In this document: positions 300-8,741 of the stretch, in pieces | Position numbering within the stretch: position 1 is the stretch's first letter | Layout: the number at the start of each line of letters is the position of its first letter | Source: a virus | Lineage: Duplodnaviria > Heunggongvirae > Uroviricota > Caudoviricetes | Virus record (IMG/VR): IMGVR_UViG_2713896788_000008 | Length of the DNA: 8,741 bases | Strand: one strand, 5' to 3' | Made by a program: the position numbers and the translations under genes | Notes under the pieces: model-generated | Seen by the model: only the letters and a program-made list of their open reading frames with translations | Told to the model about the DNA's origin: nothing | Database searches by the model: none

Positions 300-339
300 A
301 AAATATCTGAGAGCGTTATTGCCTGTTACCATAAGAAAA

Positions 340-362
340 AGCGACTTTAGTGGTCGCTTTTT
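340..362. terminator. Bidirectional rho-independent terminator between convergent genes
   Basis: Stem agcgac (340-345), loop tttagtg, stem gtcgct (354-359), with an A-run upstream (336-340) and a T-run downstream (358-362). It sits between the plus-strand ORF ending at 299 and the minus-strand ORF ending at 381. Confidence 0.6.
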
Positions 363-380
363 GTGTCATATATAAGTCGT

Positions 381-711
381 TTAAGTAAACCTGTCTGAAC
401 AGGTTCTCTGGTCGTGTTTGTCTTTGTTGGGTACAAATTGAGAATATTTTTCATTAATTAATCTTCTTCTGCAGGCTTCAATAACCCACGCTGAAAAATT
501 TCCTGAACCTTTCAGATCAAGAGCGATGTTAATTTGTTCAATCATCTGGTTTGGAAATCGGATGTTGCGGGTTGTTGTTNNNNNNNNNNNNNNNNNNNNN
601 NNNNNNNNNNNNNNNNNNNNNNNNNNNNNCGATGTTAATTTGTTCAATCATCTGGTTTGGAAATCGGATGTTGCGGGTTGTTGTTCTGCGGGTTCTGTTC
701 TTTGATGACAT
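381..711 (-). CDS. Ribbon-helix-helix-like small DNA-binding protein, interrupted by scaffold gap 580-629. If the duplicated 56 bp is collapsed, it encodes a 74-aa protein MSSKNRTRRTTTRNIRFPNQMIEQINIALDLKGSGNFSAWVIEACRRRLINEKYSQFVPNKDKHDQRTCSDRFT.
   Basis: ORF track 381..647 (contains X from the N-run). Reverse-complement reading of 686-711 continues in frame into the duplicated block with an ATG at 711..709. The pattern of a beta-strand (NIRFP), helix (QMIEQINIALDL), G-x-N turn and second helix (FSAWVIEACRRRL) is typical of Arc/MetJ/CopG-type RHH proteins. Coordinates as given include the artefactual gap. Confidence 0.55.
524..685. other. Assembly artefact: 56-bp perfect direct duplication (524-579 and 630-685) flanking a 50-N scaffold gap (580-629)
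   Basis: The sequence cgatgttaatttgttcaatcatctggtttggaaatcggatgttgcgggttgttgtt appears immediately before and immediately after the N-run, as expected for two overlapping contig ends joined with a spacer. Confidence 0.8.
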
Positions 712-1008: not shown

Positions 1009-1150
1009 GGAAAATCATGTCGGTACTTCTCGAACATAACTATTTGTTTTTTCTAATATCGAATCCGTAAAGGTCCGACATGAAAACGCCTGAAAAAGTC
1101 ATTTTCGGGCACTTTCATGTCGGACCCTGTATTTGTTGTGAGACTGTTTC
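1009..1150. promoter_or_regulatory. cosB: cosB-like terminase small-subunit binding region with three R elements (R3 1015-1026 direct, R2 1073-1083 inverted, R1 1115-1126 direct) and an AT-rich spacer that is a candidate IHF site
   Basis: tcatgtcggtac (1015-1026), gtccgacatga (1073-1083, exact reverse complement of tcatgtcggac) and tcatgtcggacc (1115-1126). The direct-inverted-direct layout copies lambda's R3-I1-R2-R1, but the motif differs from lambda's CGTTTCC-containing R sites. The R3-R2 spacer 1027-1072 is AT-rich. Confidence 0.7.
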
Positions 1151-1696: not shown

Positions 1697-5377
<3,681 letters not shown>

Positions 5378-5397
<20 letters not shown>

Positions 5398-6697
5398 TCT
5401 CCCGCATATTGCCAGCATGGCTTTTAATGAGCCGCTGATGCTTGAACCCGCCTATGCGCGGGTTTTCTTTTGTGCGCTTGCAGGCCAGCTTGGGATCAGC
5501 CGCCTGACGGATGCAGTATCCGGCGACAGCCTGACTGCCGGAGAGGCACCCGCGGCGCTGGCGTTATCCGGTGATGATGACGGACCACGACAGGCCCGGA
5601 GTTATCAGGTCATGAACGGCATCGCCGTGCTGCCGGTGTCCGGTACGCTGGTCAGCCGGACGCGGGCGCTGCAGCCGTATTCGGGAATGACCGGTTACAA
5701 CGGCATTATCGCCCGTCTGCAACAGGCTGCCAGCGATCCGATGGTGGACGGCATTCTGCTCGATATGGACACACCGGGCGGGATGGTGGCGGGAGCATTT
5801 GACTGTGCTGACATCATCGCCCGTGTGCGAGACATAAAACCGGTATGGGCGCTGGCCAACGACATGAACTGCAGTGCAGGTCAGCTGCTTGCCAGCGCCG
5901 CCTCCCGGCGTCTGGTCACGCAGACCGCCCGGACAGGCTCCATCGGCGTCATGATGGCTCACAGTAATTACGGTGCTGCCCTGGAGAAACAGGGCGTGGA
6001 AATCACGCTGATTTACAGCGGCAGCCATAAGGTGGATGGCAACCCCTACAGCCATCTACCGGGTGATGTCCGGGAAACACTGCAGTCCCGGATGGATGCA
6101 ACCCGCCGGATGTTTGCGCAGAAGGTGTCGGCATATACCGGCCTGTCCGTGCAGGCTGTGCTGGATACCGAGGCTGCAGTGTACAGCGGTCAGGAGGCCA
6201 TTGATGCCGGACTGGCTGATGAACTTGTCAACAGCACCGATGCGATCACCGTTATGCGTGATGCACTGGATGCACGTAAATCCCGTCTCTCAGGAGGGCG
6301 AATGACCAAAGAGACTCAATCAACAACTGTTTCAGCCACTGCTTCGCAGGCTGACGTTACTGGCGTGGTGCCAGCGACGGAGGGCGAAAACGCCAGCGCG
6401 GCGCAGCCGGACGTGAACGCGCAGATCACCGCTGCGGTTGCGGCAGAAAACAGCCGCATTATGGGGATCCTCAACTGTGAGGAGGCTCACGGACGCGAAG
6501 AACAGGCCCGCGTGCTGGCAGAAACCCCCGGTATGACCGTGGAAACGGCCCGCCGCATTCTGGCCGCAGCACCACAGAGTGCACAGGCGCGCAGTGATAC
6601 TGCGCTGGATCGTCTGATGCAGGGGGCACCGGCACCGCTGGCTGCAGGTAACCCGGCATCTGATGCCGTTAACGATTTGCTGAACACACCAGTGTAA
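5378..6697 (+). CDS. C: Head maturation protease gpC (S49/ClpP-like serine protease family), 439 aa, GTG start
   Basis: The ORF-track frame 5243..6697 is open from 5243, but the lambda gpC N-terminus (TAELRNLPHIASMAFNEPLMLEP) begins at the GTG at 5378, preceded by the Shine-Dalgarno gaggaggag (5368-5376). That gives 439 aa, as in lambda, and a 20-bp overlap with the end of B. Confidence 0.88.
6092..6697 (+). CDS. nu3: Scaffolding protein Nu3, made by in-frame internal initiation within C (201 aa)
   Basis: In-frame ATG at 6092 (MDATRRMFAQKVS...) shares the C stop codon; the 606-bp length equals lambda Nu3. Established lambda gene arrangement. Confidence 0.7.
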   Translation: MDATRRMFAQKVSAYTGLSVQAVLDTEAAVYSGQEAIDAGLADELVNSTDAITVMRDALDARKSRLSGGRMTKETQSTTVSATASQADVTGVVPATEGENASAAQPDVNAQITAAVAAENSRIMGILNCEEAHGREEQARVLAETPGMTVETARRILAAAPQSAQARSDTALDRLMQGAPAPLAAGNPASDAVNDLLNTPV

Positions 6698-6706
6698 GGG
6701 ATGTTT

Positions 6707-7039
6707 ATGACGAGCAAAGAAACCTTTACCCATTACCAGCCGCTGGGCAACAGTGACCCGGCTCATACCGCAACCGCGCCCGGCGGATTGAGTGCGAAAG
6801 CGCCTGCAATGACCCCGCTGATGCTGGACACCTCCAGCCGTAAGCTGGTTGCGTGGGATGGCACCACCGACGGTGCTGCCGTTGGCATTCTTGCGGTTGC
6901 TGCTGACCAGACCAGCACCACGCTGACGTTCTACAAGTCCGGCACGTTCCGTTATGAGGATGTGCTCTGGCCGGAGGCTGCCAGCGACGAGACGAAAAAA
7001 CGGACCGCGTTTGCCGGAACGGCAATCAGCATCGTTTAA
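6707..7039 (+). CDS. D: Head decoration protein gpD, 110 aa
   Basis: [56 protein letters not shown]...AGTAISIV matches lambda gpD. The ORF track starts two codons earlier at 6701 (MFMTSKE); the lambda-equivalent start is the ATG at 6707. Confidence 0.92.
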
Positions 7040-7059
7040 CCTGACCCTTCATCACTAAA

Positions 7060-7081
7060 GGCCGCCTGTGCGGCTTTTTTT
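7060..7081 (+). terminator. GC stem-loop followed by a T-run between D and E (attenuator or mRNA-stability hairpin)
   Basis: ggccgc (7060-7065), loop ctgt, gcggc (7070-7074), then T7 (7075-7081). Confidence 0.5.
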
Positions 7082-7094
7082 ACGGGATTTTTTT

Positions 7095-8120
7095 ATGTCG
7101 ATGTACACAACCGCCCAACTGCTGGCGGCAAATGAGCAGAAATTTAAGTTTGATCCGCTGTTTCTGCGTCTCTTTTTCCGTGAGAGCTATCCCTTCACCA
7201 CGGAGAAAGTCTATCTCTCACAAATTCCGGGACTGGTAAACATGGCGCTGTACGTTTCGCCGATTGTTTCTGGTGAGGTTATCCGTTCCCGTGGCGGCTC
7301 CACCTCTGAATTTACGCCGGGATATGTCAAGCCGAAGCATGAAGTGAATCCGCAGATGACCCTGCGTCGCCTGCCGGATGAAGATCCGCAGAATCTGGCG
7401 GACCCGGCTTACCGCCGCCGTCGCATCATCATGCAGAACATGCGTGACGAAGAGCTGGCCATTGCTCAGGTCGAAGAGATGCAGGCAGTTTCTGCCGTGC
7501 TCAAGGGCAAATACACCATGACCGGTGAAGCCTTCGATCCGGTTGAGGTGGATATGGGCCGCAGTGCGGCGAACAACATCACGCAGTCCGGCGGCACGGA
7601 GTGGAGCAAGCGTGACAAGTCCACGTATGACCCGACCGACGATATCGAAGCCTACGCGCTGAACGCCAGCGGCGTGGTGAATATCATCGTGTTTGACCCG
7701 AAAGGCTGGGCGCTGTTCCGTTCCTTCAAAGCCGTCAGGGAGAAGCTGGATACCCGTCGCGGCTCTCATTCCGAACTGGAGACAGCGGTAAAAGACCTGG
7801 GCAAAGCGGTGTCTTATAAGGGAATGTATGGCGATGTGGCCATCGTCGTGTATTCCGGACAGTACGTGGAAAACGGCGTCAAAAAGAACTTCCTGCCGGA
7901 CAACACGATGGTGCTGGGGAACACTCAGGCACGCGGTCTGCGCACCTATGGCTGCATTCAGGATGCGGACGCACAGCGCGAAGGCATTAACGCCTCTGCC
8001 CGTTACCCGAAAAACTGGGTGACCACCGGCGATCCGGCGCGTGAGTTCACCATGATTCAGTCAGCACCGCTGATGCTGCTGGCTGACCCTGATGAGTTCG
8101 TGTCCGTACAACTGGCGTAA
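7095..8120 (+). CDS. E: Major capsid protein gpE (HK97 fold), 341 aa
   Basis: MSMYTTAQLLAANEQKFKFDPLFLRLFFRESYPFTTEKVYLSQIPGLVNMALYVSPIV... to ...LMLLADPDEFVSVQLA matches lambda gpE. The ORF-track start at 7068 lies inside the upstream hairpin; the lambda-equivalent ATG is at 7095. Confidence 0.96.
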   Translation: MSMYTTAQLLAANEQKFKFDPLFLRLFFRESYPFTTEKVYLSQIPGLVNMALYVSPIVSGEVIRSRGGSTSEFTPGYVKPKHEVNPQMTLRRLPDEDPQNLADPAYRRRRIIMQNMRDEELAIAQVEEMQAVSAVLKGKYTMTGEAFDPVEVDMGRSAANNITQSGGTEWSKRDKSTYDPTDDIEAYALNASGVVNIIVFDPKGWALFRSFKAVREKLDTRRGSHSELETAVKDLGKAVSYKGMYGDVAIVVYSGQYVENGVKKNFLPDNTMVLGNTQARGLRTYGCIQDADAQREGINASARYPKNWVTTGDPAREFTMIQSAPLMLLADPDEFVSVQLA

Positions 8121-8122
8121 TC

Positions 8123-8147
8123 ATGGCCCTTCGGGGCCATTGTTTTT
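8123..8147 (+). terminator. Stem-loop with TTCG tetraloop and T-run immediately after E
   Basis: atggccc (8123-8129), loop ttcg, gggccat (8134-8140), then tgttttt (8141-8147). Confidence 0.55.
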
Positions 8148-8161
8148 CTGTGGAGGAGTCC

Positions 8162-8560
8162 ATGACGAAAGATGAACTGATTGCCCGTCTCCGCTCGCTG
8201 GGTGAACAACTGAACCGTGATGTCAGCCTGACGGGGACGAAAGAAGAACTGGCGCTCCGTGTGGCAGAGCTGGAAGAGGAGCTTGATGACACGGATGAAA
8301 CTGCCGGTCAGGACACCCCTCTCAGCCGGGAAAATGTGCTGACCGGACATGAAAATGAGGTGGGATCAGCGCAGCCGGATACCGTGATTCTGGATACGTC
8401 TGAACTGGTCACGGTCGTGGCACTGGTGAAGCTGCATACTGATGCACTTCACGTCACGCGGGATGAACCTGTGGCATTTGTGCTGCCGGGAACGGCGTTT
8501 CGTGTCTCTGCCGGTGTGGCAGCCGAAATGACAGAGCGCGGCCTGGCCAGAATGCAATAA
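8162..8560 (+). CDS. FI: DNA packaging accessory protein gpFI, 132 aa
   Basis: MTKDELIARLRSLGEQLNRDVSLTGTKEELALRVAEL... matches lambda gpFI. Shine-Dalgarno ggaggag at 8152-8158. The ORF-track start at 8123 falls inside the hairpin. Confidence 0.9.
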   Translation: MTKDELIARLRSLGEQLNRDVSLTGTKEELALRVAELEEELDDTDETAGQDTPLSRENVLTGHENEVGSAQPDTVILDTSELVTVVALVKLHTDALHVTRDEPVAFVLPGTAFRVSAGVAAEMTERGLARMQ

Positions 8561-8571
8561 CGGGAGGCGCT

Positions 8572-8741
8572 GTGGCTGATTTCGATAACCTGTTCGATGC
8601 TGCCATTGCCCGCGCCGATGAAACGATACGCGGGTACATGGGAACGTCAGCCACCATGACATCCGGTGAGCAGTCCGGCGCAGTAATACGTGGTGTTTTT
8701 GATGACCCTGAAAATATCAGCTATGCCGGACAGGGCGTGCG
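8572..8741 (+). CDS. FII: Head-tail connector protein gpFII, N-terminal fragment (gene runs off the window end); apparent GTG start
   Basis: Translation from the GTG at 8572 gives (M)ADFDNLFDAAIARADETIRGYMGTSATMTSGEQSGAVIRGVFDDPENISYAGQGV, matching the lambda gpFII N-terminus. Shine-Dalgarno gggagg at 8562-8567. Confidence 0.85.
   Translation, partial: MADFDNLFDAAIARADETIRGYMGTSATMTSGEQSGAVIRGVFDDPENISYAGQGV

What the first reader, a model, noticed from the sequence alone, without database searches (positions are those of the whole stretch)
7040..8161. Major capsid gene E bracketed by two terminator-like GC hairpins
Stable stem-loops with T-runs sit just upstream (7060-7081) and just downstream (8123-8147) of E, inside what should be a single late transcript. 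Under Q antitermination these would not terminate, so they more likely act as mRNA-stability or processing elements, or modulate translation, favouring high expression of D and E relative to neighbours. The upstream hairpin overlaps the false ORF-track start at 7068; the downstream one overlaps the false FI start at 8123.
Basis: partly seen in the sequence, partly recalled or inferred. Interest (0 to 1): 0.4.

Follow-up and report, generated by a model that had tools for sequence, protein, structure and literature searches.

The report
Terminator-like hairpins flanking lambda capsid gene
The major capsid gene of this lambda-like phage really is flanked by two conserved RNA hairpins, but they are a feature already annotated in related phages and their function has never been tested.

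Summary
The window is the head-gene region of a lambda-like phage, 98.9% identical to lambda and 99.1% to phage 434. hp1 (7057-7081) has an A-tract, a GCCGC/GCGGC stem, a tetraloop and T7. hp2 (8123-8140) is a 7-bp stem with a C(UUCG)G loop and a weaker T-rich tail.

They are not outliers by folding energy alone. As perfect GC hairpins with T-rich tails they exceed chance (3 observed against 0.17 expected).

In about 260 related loci the stems are better conserved than the neighbouring coding DNA, while the loops vary freely. The T-run is conserved only at hp1.

Six distant phages with an E-type capsid protein (25-35% identity) all carry a strong hairpin just after the capsid gene, mostly without a U-tract.

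GenBank already marks both as putative rho-independent terminators in N15, and hp1 in 434 and mEp237. Lambda has a similar hairpin between I and J.

My best reading, which is an inference:
- Q-modified polymerase reads through both hairpins.
- In the mRNA they act as barriers to 3'-exonucleases that stabilise the D and E segments.
- hp1 can also stop unmodified polymerase.

No RNA-end data were available. This is a known kind of feature, of low to moderate interest.

The parts
6707..7039 (+). Gene D (head decoration protein). It is the cistron immediately 5' of hp1.
   Evidence: Lambda coordinate + 960. Start ATG and stop TAA were checked. The gene is annotated in lambda and 434.
7057..7081 (+). 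hp1, an intrinsic-terminator-type hairpin. Its parts are an A-tract (AAA), a stem of 9 pairs (G.U + GCCGC/GCGGC + 3 A-U), the loop CTGT (7066-7069) and a T7 run (7075-7081).
   Evidence: The fold gives -12.2 kcal/mol, z -2.7. It is a strict-motif hit. It is annotated as a rho-independent terminator in 434, mEp237 and N15. In the alignment 98.7% of cells are paired, the loop is hypervariable, and T-run column identity is 0.996.
7082..7094 (+). Leader and ribosome-binding region of E (ACGGGATTTTTTT), with a weak SD-like GGGA at 7084-7087 and a second T7 run.
   Evidence: The 434 record marks the RBS 8-10 nt upstream of the E start. ACGGGA is conserved in the lambda and N15 clades.
7095..8120 (+). 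Gene E (major capsid protein, 341 aa).
   Evidence: 100% identical to E of phage PhiR11_1 and 98.8% to lambda and 434; coordinates.
8123..8140 (+). hp2, a 7-bp hairpin ATGGCCC/GGGCCAT closed by a C(UUCG)G tetraloop. It starts 2 nt after the E stop codon.
   Evidence: The fold gives -12.9 kcal/mol, z -3.7. The core GGCCC/GGGCC is invariant in 35 variants, and the outer pair covaries (GC 14, GU 11, AU 9). Its N15 counterpart is annotated as a putative rho-independent terminator.
8141..8149 (+). Pyrimidine-rich tail of hp2. It reads TGTTTTTCT here and TGTTTCTCT in lambda.
   Evidence: The tail is variable among relatives, with column identity 0.66. A terminator score, computed with a formula I recalled from memory, is marginal: +6 here, -3.5 in lambda and -12.5 in N15.
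8152..8158 (+). Shine-Dalgarno sequence of FI (GGAGGAG). The true FI start is ATG 8162.
   Evidence: The 434 record marks the RBS 6-10 nt upstream of FI; sequence.
8162..8560 (+). Gene FI (DNA packaging chaperone), the first cistron 3' of hp2.
   Evidence: Annotated in lambda and 434; coordinates.

Best explanation
These are two conserved RNA hairpins that belong to the E gene module of lambda-type phages.

- hp1 has the full architecture of an intrinsic terminator.
- hp2 is an extra-stable C(UUCG)G-capped hairpin with only a weak U-rich tail.

During lytic growth the late operon is transcribed by Q-modified RNA polymerase, which resists terminators (established knowledge). Both elements are therefore transcribed through and remain as structured modules within the polycistronic late mRNA.

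In the mRNA their most likely effect is to block 3'-to-5' exonucleases after endonucleolytic cuts or at decay intermediates. The segments ending in D (hp1) and E (hp2), which encode the two most abundant head proteins, would then outlast the downstream message. This step is inferred.

hp1 can in addition terminate polymerase that has not been modified by Q. This step is also inferred, from its canonical form and its conserved U-tract.

The hairpins would trim expression. They are not the main determinant of it.
For: Shown:
- The hairpins exist and fold stably. As GC hairpins with T-rich tails they exceed chance.
- They occupy the only long gaps in the head cluster.
- In 75-77 unique flanks from the lambda and N15 clades, the stems are more conserved (0.90-0.997) than the adjacent D, E and FI coding DNA (0.78-0.91). 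Loops (0.59-0.72) and spacers (0.55-0.70) are free to vary.
- hp1 shows only changes that preserve wobble pairing. hp2 shows compensatory changes (A-U, G.U, G-C).
- Clades whose E protein is 56-61% identical have different stem sequences at the same two positions.
- Six distant phages with E-type capsids (25-35% identity, six host genera) all have a hairpin in the gap after the capsid gene. Each lies in the top 0.8% or better of the 28-nt windows of its own locus, and most have no U-tract. Only 2 of 9 other gaps of at least 25 nt have such a hairpin. The hairpin itself, not termination, is therefore the deeply conserved element.
- UUCG and GNRA loops recur.
- A library study found that terminator hairpins raise the abundance of the upstream mRNA about 2.2-fold (PMC11696848).
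- Intra-late-operon terminators placed after the procapsid genes are reported in P22/L-type phages, with role unknown (10.1101/2020.10.05.325894).
Against: - No RNA 3'-end, half-life or coverage data for lambda late mRNA could be consulted. The stabiliser step is inference.
- The hp1 T-run is as conserved as its stem (0.996). An exonuclease barrier would not need that.
- A 7-9 bp stem of about -12 kcal/mol is only a moderate barrier.
- Sampson et al. 1988, seen only as a title, attributes late-gene expression ratios to translation initiation. Any stability effect is probably secondary.
- The E stop codon lies 2 nt from hp2, so each terminating ribosome must melt the hairpin.
- A similar hairpin precedes J, which is not a high-copy gene.
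Confidence: 0.45

Rival explanations
1. Safety terminators. The main selected function, above all of hp1, is to stop RNA polymerase that has not been modified by Q. Such polymerase could come from leak past tR', from cryptic internal promoters or from read-in during lysogeny. Stopping it keeps the capsid gene and the genes downstream silent unless Q is present. Q then overrides the terminators during lytic growth.
For: - hp1 has every sequence feature of an intrinsic terminator, and its U-tract is under strong constraint.
- Its terminator score is +17 to +22, using a formula I recalled from memory.
- hp1 starts 17 nt after the D stop codon, so a terminating ribosome would not mask it.
- Database annotators call it a rho-independent terminator in 434, mEp237 and N15.
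- A similar terminator-like hairpin sits before J in lambda. That suggests terminators accumulate wherever a Q-dependent operon has room for them.
Against: - hp2 and nearly all the post-capsid hairpins of distant relatives lack a usable U-tract. The D2 clade's hp1 also has no T-run.
- No promoter signal upstream needs blocking. The window has 3 promoter-like sites against 4.9 expected.
- This model does not explain why the hairpin after the capsid gene is the most widely conserved one.
Confidence: 0.2
2. Partial attenuators. Even Q-modified polymerase terminates at a low frequency at each hairpin. This creates a stepwise fall in transcript level from the head genes towards the downstream genes.
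For: - Both elements have a terminator-like form.
- In this window the hp2 tail has an extra T, which raises its score to +6.
- Weak internal terminators that balance expression are documented in other phages (PMC9163698).
Against: - The stronger terminator (hp1) lies before E. Attenuation there would lower E relative to D, although the two proteins are needed in about equal numbers (knowledge of lambda capsid composition).
- The hp2 tail is poorly conserved and often absent.
- Q-modified complexes are known to ignore strong terminators.
Confidence: 0.12
3. Translation elements. The hairpins, together with the U-rich tract, organise the ribosome-binding regions. The U7 run would serve as a binding platform for ribosomal protein S1 that enhances the weak SD of E. 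The hairpins would also insulate the RBS from upstream structure, and the tail of hp2 would pair with the SD of FI.
For: - E has only a weak SD (GGGA), preceded by two T7 runs.
- ACGGGA and the U-tract are conserved together.
- The pyrimidine tail after hp2 can pair with GGAGGAG in lambda-clade variants.
Against: - Destroying either hairpin in silico barely changes the cost of opening the RBS: 5.26 against 4.91 kcal/mol for E, and 13.15 against 11.64 for FI.
- Four of the seven U residues are paired in the extended hp1 stem.
- The tail-to-SD pairing is not conserved in the N15 clade.
- Distant relatives keep the post-capsid hairpin 16-31 nt from the stop codon and far from the next RBS.
Confidence: 0.08
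4. No RNA function. The hairpins would be leftovers of module boundaries, such as conserved linker DNA that favours recombination between mosaic phages, or neutral passengers of the E gene.
For: Mosaic junctions lie immediately outside both hairpins. The 3' end of D and the 5' part of its spacer diverge, as do the FI alleles, while hairpin plus E stay constant.
Against: - Loops mutate freely between invariant arms. The stem changes seen keep pairing or are compensatory.
- Unrelated stem sequences occupy the same positions in distant lineages. That points to selection on structure, not on sequence identity.
Confidence: 0.05

Closest known systems
Phage N15 stem-loops at 5980-6004 and 7053-7073 (GenBank AF064539), annotated as 'putative rho-indep. 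transcription terminator' on either side of gene 8 (major head protein)
   Same: They occupy the same two positions, between the D and E homologues and between the E and FI homologues. The stem cores are the same (GCCGC/GCGGC with T7; GGCCC/GGGCC).
   Different: The loops differ (CTGC and ATTC). The outer pair of hp2 is G-C instead of A-U, and the hp2 tail is CTTTCTGG, an even poorer U-tract.
Rho-independent terminator annotated between the decoration and capsid genes in phage 434 (OL657226, 6100-6120) and in mEp237 (NC_019704, 5938-5958)
   Same: The 434 element is hp1 itself, in a genome 99.1% identical to the window over this region.
   Different: hp2 is not annotated in either record. That agrees with its sub-threshold U-tract.
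[quoted passage not shown]
   Same: It is a terminator-like hairpin inside a late operon driven from one promoter and dependent on antitermination, placed after the capsid genes. [quoted passage not shown]
   Different: The capsid gene family is unrelated, and that paper's prediction is also only in silico.
T7 terminator T-phi after gene 10 (major capsid), with flanking RNase III sites (from my own knowledge)
   Same: A hairpin directly after the capsid gene gives capsid mRNA a stable 3' end and makes it more abundant than the downstream message.
   Different: T-phi does partially terminate T7 RNA polymerase. T7 processing uses long double-stranded RNase III sites, whereas hp1 and hp2 have only 9 and 7 pairs, too short for RNase III.
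Intercistronic stabiliser hairpins: REP in malE-malF, the Rhodobacter puf operon, and C(UUCG)G hairpins in T4 intercistronic regions (from my own knowledge)
   Same: A stable hairpin 3' of the more highly expressed cistron of an operon would block PNPase and RNase II. hp2 carries the CUUCGG motif.
   Different: Here no decay intermediates or half-lives have been measured. hp1 also carries a complete terminator U-tract.

Membership tests
Intrinsic (Rho-independent) terminator | GC-rich stem of about 5-14 pairs with a loop of 3-8 nt | tested here: met
   hp1 has 5 G-C pairs plus 4 A-U or G.U pairs and a loop of 4. hp2 has 5 G-C pairs plus 2 A-U pairs and a loop of 4.
Intrinsic (Rho-independent) terminator | U-rich tract of about 7-9 nt directly 3' of the stem | tested here: inconclusive
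   hp1 meets it, with a T7 run at column identity 0.996. hp2 is marginal: TGTTTTTC here, TGTTTCTC in lambda, and CTTTCTGG or CTGTTCCG in N15-clade variants.
Intrinsic (Rho-independent) terminator | RNA 3' ends and release of polymerase at the U-tract, with a measurable termination efficiency | not testable with these tools
   No transcript-end or in vitro transcription data were available. The ten literature searches found no study of these sites.
Intercistronic mRNA-stabilising hairpin (3'-exonuclease barrier) | Stable hairpin directly 3' of a cistron inside a polycistronic transcript, conserved as a structure | tested here: met
   Position. Structural conservation with sequence turnover across 10 lineages.
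Intercistronic mRNA-stabilising hairpin (3'-exonuclease barrier) | Decay intermediates that end at the hairpin, and a longer half-life for the upstream segment than for the downstream one | not testable with these tools
   This needs 3'-end mapping and rifampicin-chase measurements on induced lysogens.
RNase III processing site (as flanks T7 gene 10) | Double-stranded stem of about two helical turns (20 bp or more) | tested here: not met
   The stems have 9 and 7 pairs. There is no significant long-range pairing between the two spacers: duplex -26.9 against -21.1 +/- 3.7 kcal/mol, matched by 8% of shuffles.
Any curated Rfam RNA family | Match to a covariance model at or near its gathering score | tested here: not met
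   No hit overlaps 7040-8161. The only hits in the window are chance-level (E 0.03-0.9, far below gathering scores).

The most novel reading that the evidence does not exclude
hp1 and hp2 together could define a capsid-mRNA cassette. Endonucleolytic cleavage just 5' of hp1, with exonuclease arrest at hp2, would release a monocistronic E mRNA capped by a hairpin at both ends from the roughly 25-kb late transcript. The hairpin after the capsid gene would then be a near-universal capsid-mRNA stabiliser of phages with E-type capsids, across Proteobacteria and independent of how they terminate transcription.
Probability: 0.15. Interest if true: 0.5.

Novelty: already known. Interest (0 to 1): 0.25.

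Why it matters
If the hairpins do stabilise the D and E segments, or act as Q-overridable locks on capsid expression, they would add a post-transcriptional layer to the textbook lambda late operon. That operon is usually described as one uniform transcript tuned only by translation initiation.

There are practical consequences too:
- The hairpins contain in-frame GTG and ATG codons that mislead ORF callers. The starts of E and FI are mis-called here, and the FI starts annotated in phi80 and D2 appear to be wrong for the same reason.
- They lie in the spacers that people edit when building lambda display or packaging constructs.

As it stands, this is a correct re-observation of an annotated feature whose function has not been tested.

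Tried and rejected
- **Folding energy as the test of reality.** Rejected, because the hairpins are unremarkable by MFE in this GC-rich DNA.
- **Generic terminator scan.** It finds no overall excess and missed hp1. I replaced it with a strict motif plus shuffles.
- **Rfam.** Nothing relevant was found.
- **Long-range pairing of the two spacers, as for an RNase III site.** Not significant. The repeat search found only short chance matches.
- **RBS insulation or occlusion.** In-silico opening energies are almost unchanged when the hairpins are destroyed. Pairing of the hp2 tail with the FI SD is not conserved.
- **The third strict-motif hit, inside gene C (5444-5465).** It encodes the conserved peptide LEPAYARVFF, and its T-run comes from the Val-Phe-Phe codons. 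It is probably a coding coincidence and I did not count it as part of the feature.
- **Literature.** Ten full-text searches found no experimental work on these sites. Liu et al. 2013, Casjens & Hendrix 2015 and Sampson et al. 1988 are not held in the library.
- **Terminator score.** I used the d'Aubenton-Carafa formula as I recalled it from memory, so the absolute values are only indicative.

Full report
**What the window is.** The 8741-base window is the left-arm head region of a lambda-like phage or prophage. Positions 6700-8600 are 98.9% identical to lambda and 99.1% to phage 434. A window position equals the lambda position plus 960. On that basis D is 6707-7039, E is 7095-8120 and FI is 8162-8560, with start and stop codons checked.

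**The observation.**
- hp1 reads AAAGGCCGC-CTGT-GCGGCTTTTTTT (7057-7081). It has five G-C pairs extended by one G.U and three A-U pairs, a tetraloop and a T7 run.
- hp2 reads ATGGCCC-TTCG-GGGCCAT (8123-8140). It has seven pairs closed by a C(UUCG)G tetraloop, begins 2 nt after the E stop codon and is followed by TGTTTTTCT.
- As RNA, hp1 folds at -12.2 kcal/mol (z -2.7) and hp2 at -12.9 kcal/mol (z -3.7).

**Is it more than chance?**
- Not by energy alone. The average 30-nt window of this GC-rich DNA folds at -5.0 +/- 3.15 kcal/mol, and many coding windows are more stable than either hairpin.
- The generic terminator scan shows no excess (13 against 8.5 +/- 3.5) and missed hp1.
- A strict definition does show an excess. 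It requires at least five consecutive G/C pairs, a loop of 3-8 and a T-rich tail. The + strand has three such sites against 0.17 in 500 dinucleotide-preserving shuffles (P = 0.008).
- Two of the three fill the only long gaps of the head cluster (55 and 41 nt). Every other head junction runs from -26 to +11 nt.
- The third site lies inside gene C. It encodes the conserved peptide LEPAYARVFF and is probably a coding coincidence.

**Close relatives.** I collected 262 loci from four clades of E proteins in IMG/VR and GenBank: lambda-like, N15/phi80-like (about 90% identical), D2-like (61%) and 569R10-like (56%).
- hp1 in the lambda and N15 clades:
  - The GCCGC/GCGGC core and the T6-8 run are essentially invariant.
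  - The four loop bases take at least 14 different forms.
  - The spacer 5' of the hairpin cannot be aligned between subgroups.
  - 98.7% of stem cells are paired. The only stem changes keep pairing (A-U to G.U, C-G to U-G) and there are no double-sided changes.
- hp2:
  - The GGCCC/GGGCC core is invariant.
  - The next pair runs through A-U (9), G.U (11) and G-C (14).
  - One variant replaces U-A by C-G.
- Column identities make the same point:

| Element | Column identity |
|---|---|
| hp1 arms | 0.92 / 0.997 |
| hp1 T-run | 0.996 |
| hp1 loop | 0.59 |
| Spacer upstream of hp1 | 0.70 |
| D, last 60 nt | 0.83 |
| E, first 60 nt | 0.91 |
| hp2 arms | 0.94 / 0.90 |
| hp2 loop | 0.72 |
| hp2 tail | 0.66 |
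| FI, first 60 nt | 0.78 |

- Both hairpins are therefore better conserved than the coding DNA beside them. They stay with E when the 3' end of D or the FI allele changes. Only hp1 has a constrained U-tract.
- The 569R10 clade has different stems at the same places: CCGCC-N4-GGCGG with T7, and GAGYC-GAAA-GGCTC with T6.
- The D2 clade has CAGGCCAC-N4-GTGGCCTG without a T-run before E. After E it has CGGGGGC-GAAAT-GCCCCCG followed by TGTC and T6.

**Distant relatives.** I took six phages from an evenly spaced ranking of tblastn hits, without looking at their spacers first: Chi, Suzuki, Vibrio K251, RcJoli, BcepNazgul and PPF1. Their capsid proteins are 25-35% identical to E, and they infect six host genera.
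- All six have an unusually long gap (55-81 nt) after the capsid gene, holding a perfect GC-rich hairpin of -14 to -20 kcal/mol.
- Each hairpin lies within the most stable 0.8% of the 28-nt windows of its own locus.
- Five of the six have no U-tract worth the name.
- Counting all ten lineages, nine have such a post-capsid hairpin. The tenth, 569R10, has a weaker one with T6.
- A hairpin before the capsid gene occurs in only five of nine lineages that have a gap there.
- Among nine other gaps of at least 25 nt, two have a hairpin.
- The post-capsid hairpin is therefore the ancient or recurrent element. The terminator-shaped hp1 is confined to the enterobacterial lineages and Vibrio K251.

**Context in lambda.** On the + strand of lambda 1-23000, strict terminator-like hairpins occur at five places: in C, between D and E, between E and FI, in I, and in the I-J gap (AAACCGCC-TGCG-GGCGGTTTTGTCATTT). 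The only gaps of at least 25 nt from A to J are D-E, E-FI, L-K and I-J. E is therefore not uniquely bracketed. Terminator-like hairpins occupy three of the four sizeable gaps of this Q-dependent operon.

**What is already known.**
- The N15 GenBank record annotates both elements as 'putative rho-indep. transcription terminator' stem-loops on either side of the major head gene.
- The 434 and mEp237 records annotate hp1 as a rho-independent terminator.
- A paper on phage L notes a putative terminator at the end of the procapsid module inside the late operon. [quoted passage not shown] It suggests partial termination, or the blocking of transcription that started without antitermination (10.1101/2020.10.05.325894).
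- No Rfam family matches.
- Ten literature searches found no experimental work on these two sites. The key lambda papers are not held in the library.

**Mechanism.** It is established that lambda late genes are transcribed from pR' by Q-modified polymerase that ignores terminators; background is in PMC7547250. What follows is inference.
- *Stabiliser reading.* The hairpins persist in the mRNA, where stable 3' hairpins are known to protect upstream RNA. A library study found about 2.2-fold more upstream transcript with strong terminator hairpins (PMC11696848). The post-capsid hairpin is conserved without a U-tract across distant phages, and hyperstable UUCG and GAAA loops recur. Both facts favour a role for the hairpin itself in the RNA. 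I therefore rank 'read-through hairpins that act as 3'-exonuclease barriers for the D and E segments' first, at 0.45.
- *hp1 is different.* Its U-tract is as constrained as its stem. It starts 17 nt beyond the D stop codon, out of reach of a terminating ribosome. It scores as a terminator (+17 to +22, with a formula I recalled from memory). Termination of unmodified polymerase, as a safety lock before the capsid gene, is a serious rival or an additional function (0.2).
- *Partial attenuation under Q* (0.12) fits poorly, because the stronger site precedes E.
- *A translational role* (0.08) gets no support. Destroying the hairpins in silico changes the cost of opening the RBS by only 0.35 kcal/mol for E and 1.5 kcal/mol for FI. 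The tail-to-SD pairing is not conserved.
- *RNase III-type processing* is excluded by stem length and by the lack of long-range pairing.
- *Neutral hitchhiking or recombination linkers* (0.05) conflict with free loops between fixed arms and with unrelated stems at the same positions.
- Against all the expression-tuning models stands the classical conclusion that translation initiation sets late-gene ratios. I know it here only from the title of Sampson et al. 1988.

**Verdict.** The feature is already annotated in close relatives. The comparative result, a hairpin after the capsid gene in every E-type lineage sampled, is a modest addition. Interest is 0.25.

Noticed in passing
window 5444-5465 (lambda 4484-4505), + strand, inside gene C, 47 nt after the B stop codon: A third terminator-like hairpin: GAACCCGC-CTATGC-GCGGGTTT followed by TCTTTTGTG, at -12.5 kcal/mol. 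It encodes the conserved peptide LEPAYARVFF. It is kept in N15 and D2 and weakened by one mismatch in 569R10. It is probably a by-product of coding, though it sits just after the portal gene.
   Followed up: partly
L272:15463-15490 (lambda I-J gap, outside the window): AAACCGCC-TGCG-GGCGGTTTTGTCATTT is another intrinsic-terminator-like hairpin inside the late operon, directly before gene J. Its stem resembles the hp1 of the 569R10 clade.
   Followed up: no
L087:2411 (phi80 NC_021190, FI start at 7196) and L085:2248 (D2 OM475427, FI start at 7114): The annotated FI starts are in-frame GTG and ATG codons inside the post-capsid hairpin, 12 codons upstream of an ATG that has a proper SD. mEp237 has the same sequence as phi80 and is annotated at the downstream ATG. 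These are likely mis-annotations, of the same kind as the false 8123 start in the window.
   Followed up: partly
window 580-629 and 843-892: There are two runs of exactly 50 N (masked sequence or gaps) in the part of the window upstream of cos and Nu1.
   Followed up: no
window 334-363, + strand: AGAAAAAGCGAC-TTTAG-TGGTCGCTTTTTG is an A-tract, stem and U-tract hairpin (-14.1 kcal/mol). It looks like a bidirectional terminator in the region between the lysis genes and cos.
   Followed up: no
window 7072-7082 and 7085-7095: Near-identical direct repeats GGCTTTTTTTA and GGATTTTTTTA lie 13 nt apart, so the E leader carries two T7 runs. Both runs vary in length (T6-T8) among close relatives, which suggests slippage. 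The second run is absent in the N15 clade, which has GGGAAAAATCT.
   Followed up: partly
window 8141-8160: A weak second hairpin pairs the pyrimidine tail of hp2 with the FI Shine-Dalgarno sequence GGAGGAG. It is present in lambda-clade variants and not conserved in the N15 clade.
   Followed up: partly
L267:2519-2540 (BcepNazgul, gap after the capsid gene): The hairpin GCCGGCCC-TTCG-GGGCTGGC has the same GCCC-UUCG-GGGC core as lambda's hp2, although the capsid proteins are only 28% identical. This is apparently convergence on a CUUCGG hairpin. Suzuki also uses a TTCG loop.
   Followed up: no
window 1067-1131, both strands: There are weak palindromic Rfam hits (MIR8001, E 0.03-0.2, far below the gathering score) and a terminator-like hairpin at 1088-1110, in the cos-proximal region upstream of Nu1. 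These are chance-level matches to a eukaryotic miRNA model.
   Followed up: no
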